64,000 nucleotides of DNA from a virus: IMG/VR virus record IMGVR_UViG_3300017917_001112, positions 1 to 64,000 of that record; one strand, given 5' to 3'. The notes under the pieces are model-generated. The model was not told the DNA's origin. It was given only the letters and a program-made list of their open reading frames with translations, and made no database searches. Shown in pieces: positions 354 through 26,975 of the stretch. Position numbers and translations under genes: made by a program. Numbering within the stretch: the stretch's first letter is position 1; every line of letters starts with the position of its first letter.

Positions 354-449
354 ATGGATGAAACAGAATTAAAACTTAGACAGATGTATCTTGATACTGC
401 GAAATCAATTGTGCAGTTTATTAAAGCAAAACATTTCGGGTATTGTTAA
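354..449 (+). CDS. small hypothetical protein (31 aa, MDETELKLRQMYLDTAKSIVQFIKAKHFGYC)
   Basis: read manually; follows a CTAAATA late-promoter-like motif at 343-349. Confidence 0.4.
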   Translation: MDETELKLRQMYLDTAKSIVQFIKAKHFGYC

Positions 450-454
450 GAATT

Positions 455-718
455 GTTGTAATCCCTTCAAAGAGAAGGTGTTCTGGACGGGAGTTCGATT
501 CTCCCCACCTCCACCAATTATCTTTTCCAAGATAAAAGAAGATAATTGATGGGGGTGACTAGGTTTCGACAGGGCAAGATATCAGAGACGGCAACACGGT
601 AGGCGATGACCGTAAATCAAGCAAATCAAAGTAAACGCAAACGATGAAGTTTACGCATTGGCAGCTTAATCGCTGACTAGGGTTTCGGTTGGTTTCCTCG
701 TAACAGAATAACCAACCA
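455..718 (+). ncRNA. ssrA: circularly permuted (two-piece) tmRNA, tag peptide ANDEVYALAA
   Basis: acceptor piece with T-arm GGAGTTCGATTCTCC and CACCTCCA-CCA ends at 516; hairpin spacer 517-550; coding piece starts GGGGGTGACTAGGTTTCGAC at 551; G3.U70 pair; tag ORF 637-669. Confidence 0.93.
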
Positions 719-719
719 T

Positions 720-727
720 TATAAATA
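720..727 (+). promoter_or_regulatory. T4-type late promoter TATAAATA
   Basis: exact consensus upstream of the 815 operon. Confidence 0.65.
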
Positions 728-814
728 AGTTTATCCACAGTAAATGGATCATGGTGATAGTAACCATGTAAAAAACTATCAACACTTACACACAACACAG
801 AAAGGAAGTAAACT

Positions 815-6148: not shown

Positions 6149-6679
6149 TTACTTTAAAGGTTCTGCTGGTTTATCCATGTTTACGACTGGTGGTAATACA
6201 GCATAATTACCAACTGCCTTTTTATCAACATTATCTAATACTCCACGCTTTTTCCATTCTTCTTTTGCTGCTTCTCCAATTTTACCCTCAATAGGACATG
6301 GTGTTCCTGCTGCTAACATAGAAGCAAATACACGCTCGTCTTGACATAGTGTTGCAACTGCTGCTACTTTCATTCCCATGTCATAAAGATTTTTGGAAAG
6401 TTTAATTCTTTCACAATTCATATCTCTCATAGTCCCACCCATGGAGATACCAAGAATTTGAGTTTGAACTGCACCAGATGCTGCTACTGCGCAGACATCG
6501 TTATTGATGGTTGTAATTGCTGGAGCCACTGCTGTAGGAGGTGGCGATTTAATTGTTGTTGTGCTATTTGATGTTGAGTCTGTTGTGCTTCTAGAAGTCG
6601 AGTCGGTTACAATTGGTTGAGCAATCGCAAGTGATGAAACCATGACCAAAAGACTCGCCGATGCGAATTTTTTAATCAT
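6149..6679 (-). CDS. secreted hypothetical protein with Cys residues
   Basis: likely start MIKKF at 6679 with SD; signal peptide; PPPTAVAP...DVC...NCERIKLS...CQDERV...GTPCP. Confidence 0.75.
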   Translation of the reverse strand: MIKKFASASLLVMVSSLAIAQPIVTDSTSRSTTDSTSNSTTTIKSPPPTAVAPAITTINNDVCAVAASGAVQTQILGISMGGTMRDMNCERIKLSKNLYDMGMKVAAVATLCQDERVFASMLAAGTPCPIEGKIGEAAKEEWKKRGVLDNVDKKAVGNYAVLPPVVNMDKPAEPLK

Positions 6680-7599: not shown

Positions 7600-7600
7600 T

Positions 7601-7715
7601 TTATTTTGCTGATTGTAAGCGATGGGCTTGATCATGCCTGACTAACTATGACGATAAGATGTAAACTCGAGTAAAGCATATGAGTCATAGCATACAGTGC
7701 AGTCAGCAAAATCAA
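7601..7715 (+). ncRNA. unassigned structured RNA (long closing stem with internal hairpins)
   Basis: ATTTTGCTGATTGTA pairs with TGCAGTCAGCAAAAT; inner CTATGAC/GTCATAG and GGGC/GCCT. Confidence 0.5.
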
Positions 7716-7716
7716 T

Positions 7717-7754
7717 GGTAGTAGACTCGTCGGGAGACGCTCAGGCTACCACCA
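7717..7754 (+). ncRNA. CCA-ended tRNA-like minihelix
   Basis: GGTAGT...GCTACC-ACCA acceptor-like stem enclosing a small CGTC/GACG hairpin. Confidence 0.45.
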
Positions 7755-7760
7755 ATTTAT

Positions 7761-8022: not shown

Positions 8023-8051
8023 TTGACAATTTTTAATGTTTAGTGTATAAT
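8023..8051 (+). promoter_or_regulatory. sigma70-type promoter inside the tRNA array
   Basis: TTGACA-17bp-TATAAT. Confidence 0.85.
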
Positions 8052-8075: not shown

Positions 8076-8138
8076 ATGAAATTTATGAAGCGAAAGCGTA
8101 AGATGAAATGTCGAAAACGATTTGGGGGTATAACTTAG
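8076..8138 (+). CDS. Lys/Arg-rich micro-ORF (MKFMKRKRKMKCRKRFGGIT) running into tRNA-Lys
   Basis: strong AGGAG SD at 8065-8069 right after the promoter; stop lies inside the tRNA-Lys D-arm. Confidence 0.5.
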   Translation: MKFMKRKRKMKCRKRFGGIT

Positions 8139-8197
8139 TGGCAAAGTAGTAGGCTTTTAACCTATTAACCAGAGTTCGATTCTCTGTACCCCTACCA
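8124..8197 (+). tRNA. tRNA-Lys(TTT)
   Basis: GTAGG-CTTTTAA-CCTAT; ACCA. Confidence 0.93.
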
Positions 8198-8329: not shown

Positions 8330-8405
<76 letters not shown>

Positions 8406-8410
8406 GTTTT

Positions 8411-8466
8411 AGGATTCTTTCAGCAATTTAAAAACTTTCACTGTTAATGAAAAGAAAGCGAATCCT
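8411..8466 (+). ncRNA. CAGCAA-stem RNA 1 (Y-RNA-like; cargo is an Asn-type anticodon stem-loop)
   Basis: AGGATTC..TTCAGCAA...GAATCCT-GTT enclosing TTTCA-CTGTTAA-TGAAA. Confidence 0.75.
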
Positions 8467-8477
8467 GTTGTTTTATT

Positions 8478-8551
8478 GCCCTCATAGTTAAATGGTATAA
8501 CAGTTGCCTTGTAAGCATCAATTCGCAGTTCGATTCTGTGTGGGGGCACCA
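8478..8551 (+). tRNA. tRNA-Thr(TGT)
   Basis: loop CTTGTAA; ACCA. Confidence 0.92.
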
Positions 8552-8720: not shown

Positions 8721-8726
8721 TGTTTT

Positions 8727-8843
8727 AGGATACTTACAGCAAATAAAAACTGCTCTTGAAAAGCAGAGGTTGTTGGTTCGAGTCCAACATTGTGTCTGAT
8801 GGCACGATTAGATCAATTGGTAGATCGCTAGAAAAAGTATCCT
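8727..8843 (+). ncRNA. CAGCAA-stem RNA 2 (YrlA-like circularly permuted tRNA cargo, TGA anticodon loop)
   Basis: AGGATACTT/AAGTATCCT closing stem; order is anticodon arm, variable, T-arm, loop-closed acceptor stem, D-arm. Confidence 0.85.
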
Positions 8844-8853
8844 GTTGTTTTTT

Positions 8854-9105: not shown

Positions 9106-9110
9106 AGTTT

Positions 9111-9210
9111 AGAATCGGTTCAGCAAAACATTTAACGTAGCTCATCGGTAGAGCAATTGCCTGCAACGCAATCAGAGTGGGTTCGATTCCCATCGATAAA
9201 AAACGATTCT
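9111..9210 (+). ncRNA. CAGCAA-stem RNA 3 (acceptor-less tRNA body, GCA anticodon)
   Basis: AGAATCG/CGATTCT closing stem; D-arm TAGCTCATCGGTAGAGC, ATTGC-CTGCAAC-GCAAT, T-arm GTGGG-TTCGATT-CCCAT; no acceptor stem or CCA. Confidence 0.8.
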
Positions 9211-9220
9211 GTTGATTAAT

Positions 9221-9893: not shown

Positions 9894-9922
9894 TTGACAT
9901 TTATTCGTTTTCGAGGTATAAT
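9894..9922 (+). promoter_or_regulatory. sigma70-type promoter
   Basis: TTGACA-17bp-TATAAT. Confidence 0.85.
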
Positions 9923-11777: not shown

Positions 11778-12266
11778 ATGAGATATAGAGAAAAAATCAA
11801 TATTCAAGAAGTCAGAGATTTCGTTGAACAATGTGATCCAACAACAAAGATTTACATTGGTTGTGACTCTGAGAGATATAAAGTTGGCAAACAATGGTAT
11901 GCTGACTATATTCTTGCTGTTGTTGTTCATATCAATGGTAACAATGGATGTAAAATTTTTGGTGCGGTTCAGAAAGAAATGGACTTTGATCAAAAATACA
12001 ATCGTCCACGTATGCGTTTAATGAATGAAGTGTACAAGGTTGCGGAACTTTACTTAGAGCTTGCTCAAGAAATTCCGAATGATATCGAAGTTCACTTAGA
12101 CATTAATCCGAATGAAAACTATGGTTCTTCATGTGTAATAAACGAAGCAGTTGGTTACATTCGTGGAATGTGTAATGTTGTACCTTTGGTAAAACCGAAC
12201 GCATTCGCAGCATCTTATGCTGCAGATCGAATGAAACATGTTGTTGATTTTAGAAAAAGTGCTTGA
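11778..12266 (+). CDS. RNase H-like YkuK (DUF458) family protein
   Basis: IYIGCDS...RLMNEV...IEVHLDIN...KPNAFAASYAAD. Confidence 0.8.
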   Translation: MRYREKINIQEVRDFVEQCDPTTKIYIGCDSERYKVGKQWYADYILAVVVHINGNNGCKIFGAVQKEMDFDQKYNRPRMRLMNEVYKVAELYLELAQEIPNDIEVHLDINPNENYGSSCVINEAVGYIRGMCNVVPLVKPNAFAASYAADRMKHVVDFRKSA

Positions 12267-12291
12267 CATTTAAACATGTATCAAGTATAAT
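12263..12291 (+). promoter_or_regulatory. sigma70-type promoter for RNAs 4-5 and the Ro60-like gene
   Basis: TTGACA-17bp-TATAAT. Confidence 0.85.
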
Positions 12292-12311
12292 ATGATTTGT
12301 AAATTGAGAAA

Positions 12312-12529
12312 AGGATGGGTGCAGCAAGTATAAATTACTTAATGCCGAATGCCAGACAGAGGAGGACCACCGAAAGGTGTATTTTAAAACTGGCTAGACA
12401 GAAAAGTTGAAGTAAATCTGACGCTGGAAAGACAGCAAGATGATAGTATCCTATCAGTTTTCAGTGGGGCTGTCCGAAAGGAGACACTGGGGTTAGAATA
12501 AACCAAGTTAACATCAACCCAACCATCCT
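12312..12529 (+). ncRNA. CAGCAA-stem RNA 4 (218 nt, multi-hairpin cargo)
   Basis: AGGATGG..TGCAGCAA...CCATCCT-GTT; inner hairpins include CACC-GAAA-GGTG, GCTG-GAAAGA-CAGC, TGATAG/CTATCA, CAGTG/CACTG. Confidence 0.75.
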
Positions 12530-12553
12530 GTTATTTTTTGTTATAGGAGTTTT

Positions 12554-12668
12554 AGAATAGGTTCAGCAACCAAAATTACTAACAGCGAAAGCTGTATCAA
12601 GGGGTCGGGTTCGCCTGACGACCTGAGTTTCGAGTTCTCAGGTAAAACAAAAAGTAGAAAACTATTCT
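12554..12668 (+). ncRNA. CAGCAA-stem RNA 5 (three-hairpin cargo)
   Basis: AGAATAG..TTCAGCAA...CTATTCT-GTT; ACAGC-GAAA-GCTGT, GTCGGG-TTCG-CCTGAC, ACCTGAG/CTCAGGT. Confidence 0.75.
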
Positions 12669-12684
12669 GTTAAATGAGGTAATT

Positions 12685-14103
12685 ATGAACACTTTTGTTT
12701 CTGCCGTACAAAATCAATCTGCACGCACAACTAACGGCATGCGTGCCCGTAAATCTACTGCGTCTGCTTGCGTAGACTTGTTCTTCAAGATCGGCGCATC
12801 TCGTGGTAAAGATATCACGAAAGACTTCGTTGCTGCTTATGTTGAGAATCGCGAAGTAGCATTGCGTATTGCGCAGTGGGTTCGTGACGCACGTGGTGGC
12901 GCAGGTGAACGTGACTTGTTCCGTCAAATCCTGAAGTATCTTGACAAGCATCAACCTGAAGATGCTGCTCTTCTGTTGAACAAAGTTCCAGAGATCGGTC
13001 GTTGGGATGACATCTTTGTCGTAGAGAAAAACAAGCCAAAAGCATTTACTATGCTGGGTGATGCTCTGCGTGAACGTAATGGTCTTGCTGCTAAGTGGAC
13101 TCCACGTCAAGGTAAGTTGGCTGTTGAAATCCGTAACTTCTTTGGTATGTCTCCAAAGTTTTACCGTAAGTCTTTGGTCGAACTGACTAAAGTTGTTGAA
13201 ACTCAGATGTGCGCAAAAGACTGGGATAACATCAACTTCAGCCATGTGCCTTCTGTTGCGTCTGCACGCTACAAGAAAGCATTTTACCGTAACACTCAAG
13301 AGTACGCAAAGTACGTTGCGGAATTGGTGAAAGATCCAAAAGACCGCACTATGGATGTGAAGGTAAACGCTGGTGCAGTATATCCATACGATGTACTGAA
13401 GGGTGTTGTTGGTCACTATGTGACTAACTTCAACAAGACAGAACTTGACCTTGTTGAAAAACAATGGGAAGCACTCGAAAACTTTGTTGGTGACGCAAAC
13501 GTGTTGCCACTGGTTGACGTGTCTGGTTCTATGTCTGTGCCTGTTGGTAAGAACGCAAACCTTTCTTGCCTTACTGTTGCTGTATCTCTGGGTCTATACC
13601 TAGCAGATAAAAACACAGGTAAGTTCAAGGACACGTTCTTGACTTTCTCTGGCTCACCAGAGTTGCTGCATCTGAAAGGTACAATCCTGCAGAAAGTGCA
13701 ACAAATGGTTAAGTCTAACTGGGATATGAACACTAACTTGGTGAAGGCGATGGATAAAATCCTGAAGACTGCCAAGGACGGTAACGTGCCTCAGGAAGAA
13801 ATGCCAGAAATGCTTCTGATTCTGTCAGACATGCAGTTCGATCAATGCGCAAAGTTTGACGACTCTGCGATGAAAATGATTGAACGTAAGTTCAACGAAG
13901 CTGGTTACGATCTGCCAAAGATCGTGTTCTGGAATCTGAATGCGCATGACAATGTGCCTGTGAAGTATGACACACGTGGGGTTGCTTTGGTTTCTGGATT
14001 CAGCCCAGCAATCATGAAAGCAGTTCTTGCTGGTGATACTGAACAGTTTACACCAGAAGCAATTATGCTGAAGGCAGTTATGGTGGATCGTTACGCCATC
14101 TAA
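12685..14103 (+). CDS. Ro60/TROVE-like RNA-binding protein with C-terminal vWA domain (DUF2828-type)
   Basis: RDARGGAGER, GRWDD, AAKWTPR, VPSVA, YPYD; MIDAS DVSGSM; LSDMQFD; IVFWNL; VSGFSP. Confidence 0.85.
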   Translation: MNTFVSAVQNQSARTTNGMRARKSTASACVDLFFKIGASRGKDITKDFVAAYVENREVALRIAQWVRDARGGAGERDLFRQILKYLDKHQPEDAALLLNKVPEIGRWDDIFVVEKNKPKAFTMLGDALRERNGLAAKWTPRQGKLAVEIRNFFGMSPKFYRKSLVELTKVVETQMCAKDWDNINFSHVPSVASARYKKAFYRNTQEYAKYVAELVKDPKDRTMDVKVNAGAVYPYDVLKGVVGHYVTNFNKTELDLVEKQWEALENFVGDANVLPLVDVSGSMSVPVGKNANLSCLTVAVSLGLYLADKNTGKFKDTFLTFSGSPELLHLKGTILQKVQQMVKSNWDMNTNLVKAMDKILKTAKDGNVPQEEMPEMLLILSDMQFDQCAKFDDSAMKMIERKFNEAGYDLPKIVFWNLNAHDNVPVKYDTRGVALVSGFSPAIMKAVLAGDTEQFTPEAIMLKAVMVDRYAI

Positions 14104-24723: not shown

Positions 24724-25433
24724 TAAAAAAAACTGTCAATTCCTTCAATGATATATTCATTATGAGTGTCACATTTAGAACATTTGTATTCAATTTTTTG
24801 TTGTAAACGTGGTGTGGTTTCAAAAAACTTTTTAATTTTATCAGTAGGTGCTCTCGGCAGTCCCTCAACGAATTTAATCAAATCTTGTTTTTTCTGTTCT
24901 TTTGCAGGATAAACTGATTCTTTATCATAAATGTAATCAATACAATTTACAATAAGTTCCAAAATTTGATCAGGATTTGATATATCTAATTTGGAAATAT
25001 CTTTTAGAATGGAAGCATTCGCATACTTCATAACTACACCAACATCATCAAACAAATCGATCTTATTACTATGACCTTCTGGCTTAATCACTTCTGGTTC
25101 AATCTTAAAAGATATCTTTGTTTTTTCTTTACATTCATCATTCTTACATGTAAAAATCAATTCAACCTCTTCACCAACTGATTTAGAACGCAACTGAGTA
25201 AACATATATTCTAAATCAAAAATGGCAAGATCATCAACATTAATTTCTTTATCTAAAATACAATCAGCAATAACTGTTTTTAGAGTATCAATCATATTTA
25301 ATTCTTCTTCGCTTTGTTGCGCAAGAAGAAGGTTTTTCTCATCCTTAACAAGAAATGGTCTATATTTAATTTGCTTTCCAGTAGAAGGCAAAGTAGTTGT
25401 ATAGACAGGATGTTTATACATTGGTAATGTCAT
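24723..25433 (-). CDS. gp26: baseplate hub subunit gp26
   Basis: LPSTGKQIKYRPFLVKDEK, FDLEYMFTQLRSKSVGE, CxxxxC/CxxC, ends EGIDSFF. Confidence 0.92.
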   Translation of the reverse strand: MTLPMYKHPVYTTTLPSTGKQIKYRPFLVKDEKNLLLAQQSEEELNMIDTLKTVIADCILDKEINVDDLAIFDLEYMFTQLRSKSVGEEVELIFTCKNDECKEKTKISFKIEPEVIKPEGHSNKIDLFDDVGVVMKYANASILKDISKLDISNPDQILELIVNCIDYIYDKESVYPAKEQKKQDLIKFVEGLPRAPTDKIKKFFETTPRLQQKIEYKCSKCDTHNEYIIEGIDSFF

Positions 25434-25435
25434 TA

Positions 25436-25867
25436 TTATTCCCCTTTAGACATATTACTAATTAACTTATTCAACTCAGCTGTACTTCCAACAAATATTG
25501 CATTGTTGTTTGTTACATTTTTCTTAGGAGATGAACCATCTTTTGTTTCTTCTAAATTCTGTTTCTGTTTATGAAGATCCATGAGTTGTTGATTCACATC
25601 AGCAAGTTGTTTAATTAAAGTGCCAACAACTTCAAAGGCACGTGGATGCTCAGAGGCTTTGGCAACCTCAAGAGCACCCATCAAAGCATCTTCCCCTTGT
25701 AACAGAAGAAGATGTAGATTCTTTCTTGTCTGATCGAAGTCAGACTCAACTTTTTCAGTAGGTGTTTCAACAACATCATCTTTAATTACAAGATTTGTTG
25801 TTACACCTACTTTTTCATTTTCAACTTCAATGTCAAAAACTTTACTCAATTCTTTATCAATCTTCAA
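25436..25867 (-). CDS. gp16: terminase small subunit gp16
   Basis: SEHPRAFEV...NNNAIFVGSTAEL. Confidence 0.9.
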   Translation of the reverse strand: MKIDKELSKVFDIEVENEKVGVTTNLVIKDDVVETPTEKVESDFDQTRKNLHLLLLQGEDALMGALEVAKASEHPRAFEVVGTLIKQLADVNQQLMDLHKQKQNLEETKDGSSPKKNVTNNNAIFVGSTAELNKLISNMSKGE

Positions 25868-26279
25868 TTTTCATGCGTCCTTTAGGAACAACAGGAGCAT
25901 CATCAGGAATTTTAGCAGATGCCATTGGTGATGGTGTTACTGTTGGTGTTGGTGATAATGATGGCATACTTGAACTTATTGGAGATGGAGTTGGTGAACC
26001 TACTGATGTTGGAACAGTTGATGCTCCAGCAACTTTCTCTTGCGTTCTACCCCAAGCAGCAATACCTAATACAGCACCCATAGCCAAGTGAAATAAACCT
26101 GCACCCTGTAGTGTTAGAGGATTCCATTGTGTAACAGGTTGATGTAATACTGCTTGTAGAATTGACCAAGCTACTGGAAATAAAACCATGTCACAGAAAC
26201 ATACAACCATATACATCCATCCCATAGCAGGACGCCATTTCTTTTGCATCCAATCTTCTTTTGCCTTTTCTTCTGACAT
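25857..26279 (-). CDS. 3TM-type holin
   Basis: KWRPAMGW...W.PLTLQGAGLFHLAMGAVLGIAAWGRTQEK. Confidence 0.8.
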   Translation of the reverse strand: MSEEKAKEDWMQKKWRPAMGWMYMVVCFCDMVLFPVAWSILQAVLHQPVTQWNPLTLQGAGLFHLAMGAVLGIAAWGRTQEKVAGASTVPTSVGSPTPSPISSSMPSLSPTPTVTPSPMASAKIPDDAPVVPKGRMKIED

Positions 26280-26306
26280 AATTACCCTTTCTTTTTATTA
26301 TTGTTG

Positions 26307-26975
26307 TTATATGTCAAGTTCCATTAATGGCCAATCTAATGATGTGCCAGCTACATTAAATGATGTAATTCCACCATCAAGTAAATTTTGAAATGATGGT
26401 GATCCCATATTAAAATCAGGGATTGTTGCTTCTTGCCCATCACCACTGTCTACAACTAATGGTATCCAATATTTGTATTCTATTGTTACTGATAATTTTG
26501 TTATTTCTTTTGAACCAGCACTATAAGAAATTGGTGCTACTGTTTTAGGATATGCTTCATATAATCTTACAGCATATTTTGGTTTCTCTTGATCGCTCGC
26601 ATCTAGTTGATCAATTTCAATTGTTCCAACATAATCTTGATAATAAGTTATCATTCTGGAAACAGGATTTATAATGAGTTGTTGCCATTGGTCCCAAAAT
26701 CTTTTTATGTCCATTCTATTATCTAAGATCCATTCCATAGTAATTGGATCATATTGTCTATTATAAATTACTTCACGTTGTTCGCCATATGTTAATACTG
26801 GATTTGATACAAAATTTAATCCAGGCATAGATACACCTTGACAAAGAAGTCTTAGTTTTGTATCTGGCGCACCACCAACCATTGATTGTGGTGGTGTAAT
26901 TGTTACAAGATAACGATTGTCTCTTGCCAATCCTTCTGCTTTTACTTGTGATATAAACTCGTTAATTGATGCCAT
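26307..26975 (-). CDS. gp54: baseplate-tail tube junction protein gp54
   Basis: GLARDNRYLV, LCQGVSMPG, LYEAYP...LSVTIEYKYW; start MASINEF; adjacent to gp2. Confidence 0.8.
   Translation of the reverse strand: MASINEFISQVKAEGLARDNRYLVTITPPQSMVGGAPDTKLRLLCQGVSMPGLNFVSNPVLTYGEQREVIYNRQYDPITMEWILDNRMDIKRFWDQWQQLIINPVSRMITYYQDYVGTIEIDQLDASDQEKPKYAVRLYEAYPKTVAPISYSAGSKEITKLSVTIEYKYWIPLVVDSGDGQEATIPDFNMGSPSFQNLLDGGITSFNVAGTSLDWPLMELDI

What the first reader, a model, noticed from the sequence alone, without database searches (positions are those of the whole stretch)
8411..8466. Minimal 56-nt RNA displaying only an Asn-type anticodon stem-loop
Seen: the smallest family member contains only TTTCA-CTGTTAA-TGAAA, a 5-bp stem with a 7-nt loop identical to the anticodon loop of the tRNA-Asn immediately upstream (8330-8405) but a different stem. 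Inference: the anticodon loop is the presented element, which supports a decoy or bait model against anticodon nucleases or modification enzymes.
Basis: partly seen in the sequence, partly recalled or inferred. Interest (0 to 1): 0.7.

Follow-up and report, generated by a model that had tools for sequence, protein, structure and literature searches.

The report
Phage RNA displaying a bare anticodon hairpin
A lake phage encodes a 56-base RNA that carries only the anticodon hairpin of asparagine tRNA on a conserved "handle"; that handle travels with a Ro60-shaped phage protein, so the RNA is probably that protein's partner and may bait bacterial enzymes that cut tRNA.

Summary
A 7-bp closing stem (8411-8417 with 8460-8466), an invariant CAGCAA and a 3' GUU enclose a 5-bp, 7-nt-loop hairpin. 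Its loop and closing pair (ACUGUUAAU) match tRNA-Asn 80 nt upstream.

It is one of five "CAGCAA-handle" RNAs in this phage. I found 159 unique copies in 72 viral contigs, mostly inside tRNA arrays.

The handle co-occurs with a DUF2828 protein (12685-14103) whose model matches Ro60 structures. All 4 complete contigs and 7 cultured phage groups have both; T4 and T5 have neither.

Of 87 minimal copies, 32-42 carry canonical anticodon loops (0.7 expected) with at least 11 triplets, led by Lys-UUU and Thr-UGU. 81% of the U36 loops carry U36-A37-A38-U39, the motif shared by targets of the PARIS nuclease AriB. The rest carry other loops. Adjacency to tRNA-Asn is coincidence (3 of 36).

Protein binding and decoy function are inferred, not shown. 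The family is absent from Rfam and from the papers I searched. It resembles Dictyostelium Class I RNAs, and a dictyostelid encodes a DUF2828 protein.

This scan has noted the family before in at least 35 other genomes.

The parts
8330..8405 (+). tRNA-Asn(GTT), the upstream neighbour; its positions 31-39 (8360-8368, ACTGTTAAT) equal the hairpin loop plus closing pair of the element
   Evidence: ARAGORN; Rfam tRNA 67.1 bits; sequence
8406..8410 (+). 5' flank GTTTT; the flank (A)GTTTT is conserved across the family and may be a processing site or a 5' tail
   Evidence: Column counts: T at positions -4 to -1 in 126-147 of 159 copies. The processing role is inference.
8411..8417 (+). 5' strand of the 7-bp closing stem (AGGAUUC); the first two bases, AG, are invariant
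   Evidence: 20 distinct stem sequences, and all four Watson-Crick pair types at stem positions 6 and 7
8418..8426 (+). Handle core: UUU linker plus invariant CAGCAA (8421-8426), single-stranded
   Evidence: Invariant in the 83 aligned minimal copies. The same motif, as UUACAGCAA, occurs in Listeria, Staphylococcus, Campylobacter, E. coli and Mycobacterium phages.
8427..8435 (+). A/U-rich spacer
   Evidence: Alignment A2
8436..8452 (+). Anticodon-stem-loop mimic: UUUCA / C32-U33-G-U-U-A37-A38 / UGAAA. It reads U36-A37-A38-U39-G40-A41.
   Evidence: Near-identical hairpins sit in different closing stems in L041 and L056.
8453..8459 (+). A-rich 3' spacer (AGAAAGC); the run of A before the 3' stem strand is conserved in the family
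   Evidence: Column counts: A in 101-133 of 159 copies at five positions
8460..8466 (+). 3' strand of the closing stem (GAAUCCU); the last two bases, CU, are invariant
8467..8477 (+). 3' tail GUUGUUUUAUU, running up to the 5' end of tRNA-Thr (8478). G was required by the extraction; U (146 of 158) and U (133 of 158) were not required.
8023..8051 (+). Perfect-consensus sigma-70-type promoter (12 of 12) that heads the tRNA operon containing the element
   Evidence: no + strand terminator-like site before the next promoter at 9894, apart from tRNA-arm look-alikes
8724..8851 (+). Family member E2: the same handle carrying a permuted tRNA body with an anticodon arm (loop CUUGAAA)
   Evidence: Rfam YrlA 31.2 bits, below cut-off; R1 47.2 bits
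9108..9218 (+). Family member E3: the same handle carrying a tRNA-Cys-like body without CCA
   Evidence: R1 41.6 bits
12309..12540 (+). Family member E4: the same handle with a cargo of about 190 nt, directly after the promoter at 12263-12291
12551..12672 (+). Family member E5: the same handle with a cargo of about 90 nt, ending 13 nt before the Ro60-like gene
   Evidence: R1 39 bits
12685..14103 (+). Gene for the Ro60-like protein (472 aa; DUF2828 + DUF7788; MIDAS motif DVSGSMS), the presumed partner of the handle
   Evidence: Pfam; PHROG 850; AlphaFold2 model; Foldseek top 13 listed matches all Ro60/TROVE, E 1.6e-8 to 3.8e-5

Best explanation
The 56-nt element is a small non-coding RNA. It is transcribed within the phage tRNA operon and released when the flanking tRNAs are processed. 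It has two modules.

The first is a constant handle: a 7-bp closing stem that starts AG and ends CU, a single-stranded (U)NCAGCAA on the 5' side, an A-rich 3' side and a 3' GUU. By analogy with Y RNAs and Ro60, the handle most likely docks the RNA on the phage's Ro60-like DUF2828/vWA protein, whose gene lies 4 kb downstream behind two larger family members.

The second is a variable cargo. Here it is nothing but an anticodon stem-loop of the tRNA-Asn(GUU) type. I think the hairpin is presented as a look-alike of the tRNA anticodon arm to proteins that read that arm. The likeliest targets are host tRNA-cutting defence nucleases of the PARIS AriB kind, so that the particle soaks up or intercepts them.

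What is shown: the family exists, the stem and hairpin are conserved, the family is linked to the protein gene, and the loops are anticodon-like.

What is inferred: physical binding to the protein, release as a discrete RNA, and the decoy function.
For: Family and structure:
- Five copies in the window share the handle with unrelated cargos.
- There are 159 unique copies in 72 viral contigs.
- 156 of 205 motif hits have the complementary 3' strand, against 3 in the control; there are 20 stem variants.
- The hairpin columns are 78.6% paired and all 5 pairs show compensatory changes.

Link to the protein:
- The adjacent ORF folds like Ro60.
- Homologues lie in 33 of the 116 fetched contig pieces.
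- All 4 complete contigs that carry elements also carry the gene, counting the window's own genome.
- The handle sits next to the gene in cyanophage BUCT-ZZ01, Vibrio phi-pp2, Listeria P100/CKA15, E. coli wV8, Campylobacter F336, Staphylococcus S-CoN_Ph4 and Mycobacterium Faith1.
- T4 and T5 have tRNA clusters but no such gene, and they have no handle.

Transcription: the element lies between perfect-consensus promoters inside a tRNA operon. E4, E5 and the protein gene share another promoter.

Anticodon mimicry:
- 32 strict and 42 looser anticodon-type loops occur among 87 minimal copies, against 0.73 expected.
- 41 of 42 triplets end in U or A followed by A37-A38, against 57% of the 1003 phage tRNAs in the same contigs.
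- The commonest triplets are Lys-UUU (10 in the strict count, 12 in the looser one) and Thr-UGU (7 and 8); Asn-GUU is also present.
- UAAU at positions 36-39 occurs in 25 of 31 U36 cargos, against 112 of 359 U36 tRNAs. It is present even where the phages' own tRNA-Lys and tRNA-Arg mostly lack it.

Literature:
[quoted passage not shown] These tRNAs share UAAU, and a U39A change abolishes cutting (PMC12409363).
- Bas63 gp130 is Ro60-like and lies upstream of that phage's tRNA genes. It counters the Ppl defence system (bioRxiv 10.1101/2024.10.10.617714).
- In Listeria phage CKA15 the homologous protein is abundant, and highly transcribed unannotated regions lie upstream of it among the tRNA genes (PMC12282133). 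The three handle RNAs sit there behind their own promoter.
Against: - There are no expression, end-mapping or binding data for this phage.
- The hairpin is thermodynamically weak. It is absent from the single-sequence minimum-energy fold (z = -0.95) and from the RNAalifold consensus.
- About half of the minimal copies carry loops that are not anticodon-like, so anticodon display cannot be the whole function of the family.
- The handle is not the canonical Ro60-binding motif (GGUCCGA or GNCGAA; PMC4201824). The protein is DUF2828, not Pfam TROVE.
- Bas63 gp130 alone, expressed in T7-infected cells without phage handle RNAs, was enough to counter Ppl.
- AriB also needs D-loop contacts, so a bare hairpin may bind it poorly.
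- The phage has no detectable RtcB, Rnl1 or Rnl2. The host and its defence systems are unknown.
- The skew to A/U-rich triplets may partly reflect the A+T-rich composition.
Confidence: 0.55

Rival explanations
1. Tether rather than decoy. As Y RNA ties Ro60 to PNPase, the anticodon hairpin recruits a host protein that binds anticodon arms to the Ro60-like ring. Candidates are the t6A or i6A modification enzymes, an aminoacyl-tRNA synthetase or a ribonuclease. The effect would be to redirect or regulate that protein for the phage's benefit, for example in tRNA quality control.
For: - Y RNAs act as tethers and gates (PMC4201824; phiLo Ro60 with host PNPase, PMC12135203).
- All the cargo triplets have U36 or A36 followed by A37-A38. 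From established knowledge, this is the context of t6A37 and i6A37 modification.
- Other family members carry whole or permuted tRNA bodies.
Against: - No partner enzyme is identified.
- The triplet skew to Lys and Thr and the UAAU motif fit nuclease targets at least as well (PMC12409363).
- The cargos that are not anticodon-like are unexplained.
Confidence: 0.2
2. The handle is the only functional part, serving to gate or stabilise the Ro60-like protein. The cargo is evolutionary filler left from tRNA-derived ancestors, so the anticodon look is inherited and not used.
For: - Cargos are very diverse, and half are not anticodon-like.
- Larger relatives carry whole tRNA bodies from which hairpins could derive by deletion.
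- The protein alone works against Ppl.
Against: - The hairpin geometry (5 bp, 7 nt, C32-U33, A37-A38) is kept through compensatory changes.
- UAAU is kept even where the phages' own tRNAs of that anticodon lack it.
- The triplet use differs strongly from the phage tRNA repertoire: Lys-UUU is about 26% of cargos and 2.4% of tRNAs.
Confidence: 0.12
3. It is a processing spacer. The stem and its flanking U-rich tracts are punctuation for RNase E, RNase III or RNase P in the tRNA operon, and the element has no role of its own.
For: - 91 of 159 elements lie within 30 nt of a same-strand tRNA.
- The conserved AGUUUU and GUU(U) flanks look like RNase E sites; this is inference from the known RN|WUU preference.
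Against: - The elements also occur outside tRNA arrays with their own promoter, next to the protein gene (Listeria P100/CKA15, Staphylococcus phage).
- T4 and T5 tRNA clusters have none.
- An invariant single-stranded CAGCAA and a conserved inner hairpin are not needed for punctuation.
Confidence: 0.06
4. It is a miniature mobile DNA repeat with inverted ends (MITE-like), or a chance hairpin, without RNA function.
For: It has terminal inverted 7-mers and occurs in many copies per genome.
Against: - The stems vary by compensatory change and are not copies of one repeat; there are 20 variants.
- The five window copies and those examined in cultured phages lie on the same strand as the neighbouring tRNA and protein genes.
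- Conservation spans phages of several bacterial phyla alongside a 31-49% identical protein.
- Shuffles exclude chance.
Confidence: 0.02

Closest known systems
Y RNAs with Ro60/Rsr: metazoan Y RNAs, Deinococcus Yrn1, Salmonella and mycobacteriophage YrlA/YrlB (Rfam RF02553), Thermus phage phiLo Yrl1/2
   Same: - Small RNAs whose 5' and 3' ends pair into a protein-binding stem, with a variable effector module.
- They are encoded next to a ring-shaped TROVE+vWA-type protein.
- Several RNAs go with each protein.
- The modules mimic tRNA. The window's E2 aligns to the YrlA T, acceptor and D arms.
   Different: - The protein is DUF2828, not Pfam TROVE.
- The handle is a stem plus UNCAGCAA, not GGUCCGA or GNCGAA.
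- No copy reaches the YrlA cut-off; the best score is 31 bits against 69.
- This member has no T, D or acceptor arm at all, only an anticodon arm, which YrlA lacks.
Dictyostelium Class I RNAs (Rfam RF01414; Kjellin et al. 2021, PMC7919456)
   Same: - Both are 42-65 nt, with a short covarying terminal stem that starts with G and an adjacent conserved motif (CCUUACAGCAA).
- Many phage copies read UUACAGCAA.
- Both have a variable middle, a 3' C-UGU, and occur as multi-copy gene families.
- The element scores 33.4 bits, which is above the authors' candidate threshold of 25.
- A dictyostelid, Tieghemostelium lacteum, encodes a DUF2828 protein 34% identical to the phage protein over its full length.
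   Different: - The score is below Rfam's cut-off of 41.5.
- It has a bacterial promoter and tRNA-operon context, not the DUSE promoter element.
- The only shown direct binder of Class I RNA is the RRM protein Rnp1A.
- No anticodon-like cargo has been described for Class I RNAs.
- Homology is not proven.
Phage tRNAs that neutralise tRNA-targeting defence: T5 tRNA-Lys/Thr/Asn variants against PARIS AriB (PMC11464382, PMC12409363) and phage tRNA-Tyr against retron effectors (PMC11555353)
   Same: - They are phage-encoded and lie in tRNA clusters.
- They concern the same anticodon classes (Lys-UUU, Thr-UGU, Asn-GUU, Tyr-GUA).
- The anticodon arm is the contested surface.
   Different: - Those are working tRNAs that replace cut host tRNAs because they lack the recognition motif.
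- This RNA cannot be charged, and it keeps the motif (UAAU). That is what a bait would do, not a replacement.
Bas63 gp130, a Ro60-like anti-Ppl counter-defence protein (PhageMaP preprint, bioRxiv 10.1101/2024.10.10.617714)
   Same: - It is a Ro60-shaped phage protein encoded directly upstream of the tRNA genes.
- Genetic evidence shows that it counters a bacterial defence system.
- The authors guessed that some annotated tRNAs are its Y RNAs.
   Different: - I did not align gp130 with the window's protein. I examined the arrangement only in the related phage wV8.
- The protein alone was enough in T7.
- No RNA partner was defined in that work.
Stable RNAs of unknown function in phage tRNA clusters (T4 rnaC/rnaD; T5 RNA I, III, IV, 1, 2, 3, X)
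   Same: They are small stable RNAs, some tRNA-like, co-transcribed with phage tRNAs.
   Different: - Neither phage has the DUF2828 gene.
- Neither tRNA region matches the handle model.

Membership tests
Y RNA / YrlA (Rfam RF02553) | Encoded beside, and bound by, a Ro60/Rsr (TROVE+vWA) protein | tested here: inconclusive
   Genomic linkage to a protein with the Ro60 fold is strong. However, the protein is DUF2828, not Pfam TROVE, and binding was not tested.
Y RNA / YrlA (Rfam RF02553) | Terminal stem carrying the Ro60-binding motif GGUCCGA or GNCGAA(N)G | tested here: not met
   The stem is present, but the conserved motif is (U)NCAGCAA. The canonical motif is taken from PMC4201824.
Y RNA / YrlA (Rfam RF02553) | Score at or above the family's gathering cut-off (69 bits); tRNA-like T, D and closed acceptor arms | tested here: not met
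   YrlA gives no match to 8403-8480. E2 reaches only 31.2 bits. The element has no T, D or acceptor arm.
Dictyostelium Class I RNA (Rfam RF01414) | Length 42-65 nt; short terminal stem beginning with G and pairing with the C of a 3' CUGU | tested here: met
   The element is 56 nt. Stem AGGAUUC pairs with GAAUCCU and is followed by GUU, giving ...C-C-U-G-U-U. The feature definition is from PMC7919456.
Dictyostelium Class I RNA (Rfam RF01414) | 11-nt motif CCUUACAGCAA next to the 5' stem strand (near-invariant T3, C6, C9, A10, A11) | tested here: inconclusive
   The element has UUCUUUCAGCAA. CAGCAA and a U two bases before it are conserved. E2 and many cultured-phage copies read (C)UUACAGCAA. 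The register is off by one base.
Dictyostelium Class I RNA (Rfam RF01414) | Gathering cut-off of 41.5 bits; DUSE promoter about 60 nt upstream; occurrence in Dictyostelia | tested here: not met
   The score is 33.4 bits. The promoter context is a sigma-70-type tRNA operon. The source is a phage genome.
tRNA | Cloverleaf with acceptor, D, anticodon and T arms | tested here: not met
   ARAGORN and Rfam tRNA give no call at 8406-8477. Only an anticodon-arm look-alike is present.
CAGCAA-handle RNAs of DUF2828 phages (undescribed family, defined here and in earlier notes of this scan) | 7-bp covarying closing stem (AG...CU), three bases, CAGCAA, A-rich 3' side, 3' G(U/G); located near a DUF2828 gene or in that phage's tRNA array | tested here: met
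   Model R1 gives 72.4 bits, but the element was in the training set. The gene lies at 12685-14103.

The most novel reading that the evidence does not exclude
The element belongs to a cross-kingdom ribonucleoprotein family. DUF2828 Ro60-like proteins would bind small RNAs through a stem-UUACAGCAA handle. The orphan Class I RNAs of Dictyostelium would be the eukaryotic members, having been thought unique to social amoebae.

In phages the handle would present interchangeable tRNA parts. Bare anticodon hairpins that keep the UAAU recognition motif would act as baits that neutralise tRNA-cutting defence nucleases such as PARIS AriB.
Probability: 0.3. Interest if true: 0.9.

Novelty: new variant of a known kind. 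Interest (0 to 1): 0.8.

Why it matters
If the reading holds, phages carry a programmable RNA display system. One protein-docking handle would present different tRNA look-alike parts, down to a bare anticodon hairpin.

- This would add an RNA-bait layer to the conflict over tRNAs between phages and bacterial defence nucleases, alongside the known strategy of encoding resistant tRNAs.
- It would give a partner RNA, and a testable function, to a protein family found in at least 711 cultured phage records. One member of that family already has genetic evidence for counter-defence.
- It would give the first mechanistic lead for Dictyostelium Class I RNAs, which have been unexplained since their discovery: test whether they bind the amoeba's DUF2828 protein.
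- The family is missing from Rfam, so these genes are currently unannotated, or are miscalled as tiny ORFs or pseudo-tRNAs, in phage genomes.

Tried and rejected
- **Pseudoknot.** I considered pairing of CAGCA with the 3' UGUUG and rejected it on geometry: there would be no linker between the 3' stem strand and the second helix.
- **First motif search.** It used the wrong spacing and missed the copies; I corrected this.
- **Pfam TROVE, RtcB, Rnl2 and Rnl1 in the phage.** None was found. The Rnl1 control rang nowhere, so that result is uninformative.
- **Near-identity search of the tRNA region against cultured phages.** Only scattered tRNA matches came back, with no close relative.
- **Rfam at permissive thresholds.** No family other than Class I matched the element; CRISPR-DR19, mir-234 and Bp1_738 are noise.
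- **Class I model on six further loci.** Only one copy exceeded E 0.5, at 28.8 bits, so the Class I resemblance stays below the cut-off.
- **Class I RNA gene near the dictyostelid DUF2828 gene.** None lies within 10 kb.
- **Identifying the D. discoideum orthologue.** I also tried to learn whether the Class I pull-down protein DDB_G0281243 is the DUF2828 protein. The best representatives carry no names, and no paper or supplement gives its domains. Avesson 2011 is not held.
- **CKA15's most transcribed region (26,236-26,727).** It is not the three handle RNAs (25,278-25,574); it matches ROOL RNA instead. Published expression therefore supports the handle RNAs only indirectly.
- **Bas63.** I could not find it among the listed rows when checking its relation to wV8.
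Full report
**1. The observation**

The window is the first 64 kb of a complete 165-kb phage genome with direct terminal repeats. It holds 28 tRNA genes and a permuted tmRNA.

The element lies between tRNA-Asn (8330-8405) and tRNA-Thr (8478-8551). It reads AGGATTC-TTT-CAGCAA-TTTAAAAAC-TTTCA-CTGTTAA-TGAAA-AGAAAGC-GAATCCT, followed by GTT.

The loop plus its closing A-U pair (ACTGTTAAT, 8440-8448) is identical to positions 31-39 of the neighbouring tRNA-Asn (8360-8368). The remaining stem bases differ. No tRNA is called here.

On its own the hairpin is not convincing. The minimum-energy fold keeps the closing stem but not the hairpin, and the energy is ordinary, with z = -0.95.

**2. It belongs to a large family**

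Four other + strand elements in the window share the same frame. They are E2 (8724-8851), E3 (9108-9218), E4 (12309-12540) and E5 (12551-12672). Their cargos are unrelated:
- E2 carries a permuted tRNA body.
- E3 carries a tRNA-Cys-like body.
- E4 and E5 carry larger RNAs.

I then required the reverse complement of the first seven bases, plus G, within 450 nt.
- This gave 161 elements, 159 of them unique, in 72 sources.
- 156 of 205 motif hits have such a partner downstream, against 3 in an upstream control of the same size.
- The stems come in 20 sequence variants, with all four Watson-Crick pair types at stem positions 6 and 7.
- Stem position 8 avoids Watson-Crick pairing: 27 observed against 48 expected, often G.A.

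Features that the extraction did not impose are also conserved:
- U two bases before CAGCAA
- an A-rich run before the 3' strand
- UU after the 3' G
- a (A)GUUUU 5' flank

Cargo lengths cluster in several classes. Eighty are 20-40 nt (the minimal class, like this element), 37 are about 60-100 nt (tRNA-sized), and the rest are longer.

The elements live in tRNA arrays. ARAGORN finds 1003 tRNAs in 68 of the 72 sources. 91 of 159 elements lie within 30 nt of a same-strand tRNA.

**3. The handle travels with a Ro60-like protein**

The ORF 13 nt downstream of E5 (12685-14103, 472 aa) matches Pfam DUF2828 and DUF7788 and PHROG 850 "RNA-binding protein". It has a MIDAS motif, DVSGSMS.

An AlphaFold2 model built from 23 homologues has pLDDT 77.8. 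Its 13 best listed PDB matches are all full-length Ro60/TROVE structures: Thermus phage phiLo, Xenopus, Deinococcus and human. Their E-values run from 1.6e-8 to 3.8e-5. Pfam TROVE itself does not match anywhere in the phage.

Co-occurrence of the protein gene with the RNA elements:
- Homologues at 41-80% identity lie inside 33 of the 116 fetched contig pieces, often directly after an element.
- Of 15 further contigs searched whole, 9 have the gene. The 6 without it are fragments estimated at 3-62% complete.
- All 4 complete genomes have it, counting the window's own.

711 cultured phage records encode the protein, always next to the tRNA genes in the records I inspected. A regular-expression scan and a covariance model built from 83 minimal copies (R1) find the handle beside the gene in seven unrelated groups:
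- cyanophage BUCT-ZZ01
- Vibrio phi-pp2
- Listeria P100/CKA15 (three copies behind their own promoter)
- E. coli wV8 (four copies)
- Campylobacter F336
- Staphylococcus S-CoN_Ph4 (three copies)
- Mycobacterium Faith1 (three copies)

T4 and T5 have tRNA clusters with stable RNAs but no such gene. Neither has the handle; the best R1 score there is 11.9 bits.

In the window, perfect-consensus promoters lie at 8023 and 12263. The first places the element in a tRNA operon. The second places E4, E5 and the protein gene in one unit.

**4.

Among the 87 unique minimal copies:
- 42 have a stem of at least 5 bp with a 7-nt loop. Shuffles give a mean of 4.7 and a maximum of 12.
- 32 have a strict anticodon-type loop, Y-U-NNN-R-N. 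Shuffles give a mean of 0.73 and a maximum of 4.
- A looser scan gives 42.

On the 83-sequence alignment the hairpin columns are 78.6% paired, and all five pairs show compensatory changes. Slid controls give 38-46%. RNAalifold, however, predicts only the closing stem.

The remaining copies carry other loop types:
- loops containing UGG
- a 9-nt ACUAUAAUC type, which is the copy just upstream of the protein gene in many contigs
- a CGCUAA/UUAGCG type

Anticodon display is therefore real and selected, but it applies to about half of the minimal copies.

The identity with the neighbouring tRNA-Asn is a coincidence of position. Only 3 of 36 such elements that flank a tRNA share its anticodon.

**5. 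What kind of anticodon arm is displayed**

41 of 42 triplets end in U or A and are followed by A37-A38. Only 57% of the 1003 phage tRNAs in the same contigs have U or A at position 36.

Lys-UUU makes up about a quarter of the cargos but 2.4% of the tRNAs. Thr-UGU makes up about a fifth of the cargos but 3.7% of the tRNAs.

U36-A37-A38-U39 occurs in 25 of 31 U36 cargos, against 112 of 359 U36 tRNAs.
- The phages' own tRNA-Lys(UUU) mostly read UAAC.
- Their tRNA-Arg(UCU) shows no UAAU among its listed forms, yet UCU cargos read UAAU.
- Seven cargos read UAAUCA.

Belukhina et al. (PMC12409363) report on the PARIS nuclease AriB:
- These tRNAs share UAAU.
- Cleavage is at U36AAUC|A41.
- A U39A change abolishes cleavage.
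- T5's resistant tRNAs rescue infection.

The element here reads U36AAUG-A41. This overlap is the best current support for a bait role, but it is circumstantial. AriB also needs D-loop contacts, the host is unknown, and A+T-rich composition may contribute to the skew.

**6. Published hints about the protein**

PhageMaP (bioRxiv 10.1101/2024.10.10.617714) shows that Bas63 gp130 counters the Ppl defence system. gp130 is a Ro60-like protein encoded just upstream of that phage's tRNA genes. The protein alone rescues T7, which argues that at least this activity does not need phage handle RNAs. I did not align gp130 with the window's protein.

In Listeria phage CKA15 the homologue (CKA15_055) is found in virions. 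Strongly transcribed unannotated regions lie upstream of it, and the authors guessed that these are Y RNAs (PMC12282133).
- The three handle RNAs map to 25,278-25,574, behind a TTGACA promoter.
- The single most transcribed region (26,236-26,727) instead matches ROOL RNA.

**7. Comparison with known families**

The design is that of a Y RNA: a terminal protein-binding stem, a variable module, tRNA mimicry, and a gene next to a Ro60-type protein. The defining Ro60-binding motif and the Rfam YrlA cut-off are not met.

The only Rfam family that matches the element is Dictyostelium Class I RNA, at 33.4 bits against a cut-off of 41.5.
- The two share the G-initiated covarying stem, the adjacent (CC)UUACAGCAA motif, the 3' CUGU, the length of about 60 nt and the multi-copy habit (PMC7919456).
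- Many cultured-phage copies read UUACAGCAA exactly.
- The dictyostelid Tieghemostelium lacteum encodes a DUF2828 protein (DLAC_02580, 504 aa). It is 34% identical to the phage protein over its full length (E 3e-72) and sits in ordinary eukaryotic gene context.
- One of four proteins pulled down with Class I RNA DdR-21 is DDB_G0281243, of unknown function (bioRxiv 10.1101/2020.04.05.026054). I could not find out what it is.

I found no description of the phage RNA family in Rfam 15 or in the paper library.

**8. Earlier notes of this scan**

The same family has been noted in at least 35 other genomes, with similar readings. Those notes agree with what I found independently. One of them gave me the PhageMaP lead.

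**9. Verdict**

- Most likely (about 0.75): the element is a partner RNA of the phage's Ro60-like protein.
- Plausible but untested (about 0.4): its anticodon hairpin serves as bait for tRNA-cutting defence enzymes.

Noticed in passing
L132:4468-5019 (Listeria phage P100); corresponds to about 26,236-26,727 of phage CKA15: Matches ROOL RNA (RF03087) at 86 bits (cut-off 99.1), E 7e-16. The position coincides with the most highly transcribed region of CKA15. The authors had annotated that region as three tiny ORFs (CKA15_059-061) and left it unexplained.
   Followed up: partly
window 8077-8139: A 20-codon ORF (MKFMKRKRKMKCRKRFGGIT) has a good ribosome-binding site. It follows the perfect-consensus promoter at 8023 and runs into the start of tRNA-Lys (8124). 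It is very rich in Lys and Arg codons and may be a leader peptide that senses tRNA supply.
   Followed up: no
window 7600-7760: A 160-nt spacer lies between tRNA-Glu and tRNA-Gly. Its ends (TTTTGCTGATTG ... CAGTCAGCAAAA) can pair. It does not have the CAGCAA-handle layout, and its nature is unknown.
   Followed up: no
window 12309-12540 (E4) and 12551-12672 (E5): Two handle RNAs with cargos of about 190 and 90 nt sit between a perfect-consensus promoter and the Ro60-like gene. Neither cargo matched an Rfam family at the gathering threshold. E5 contains a GNRA hairpin and a T-arm-like hairpin.
   Followed up: partly
tRNA genes in loci L009-L124; window 8124-8197: The phages' own tRNA-Lys(UUU) mostly read U36-A-A-C39 (14 copies) and less often UAAU (8 copies). 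The window's copy reads UAACCU. Position 39 is where phage T5's PARIS-resistant tRNA-Lys differs from the E. coli tRNA.
   Followed up: partly
L131:8404-8529 (E. coli phage wV8) and L136:~6533-6655 (Mycobacterium phage Faith1): Handle RNAs with permuted tRNA bodies occur in cultured phages. The Faith1 copy again shows a CTGTTAA (Asn-type) loop. Some stretches of the wV8 tRNA array are annotated as tRNA-OTHER pseudogenes; I did not check whether the handle RNAs are among them.
   Followed up: partly
L134:10001-11515 (Tieghemostelium lacteum genome): An intronless DUF2828 gene sits in a social amoeba between ordinary eukaryotic genes. Its product is 34% identical to the phage protein. Related proteins also turned up from a green alga, two fungi and protist transcriptomes.
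   Followed up: partly
window 407-760: The phage encodes a permuted (two-piece) tmRNA with the tag ANDEVYALAA. A similar permuted tmRNA lies near the Ro60-like gene of cyanophage BUCT-ZZ01 (L129:1737-2137).
   Followed up: no
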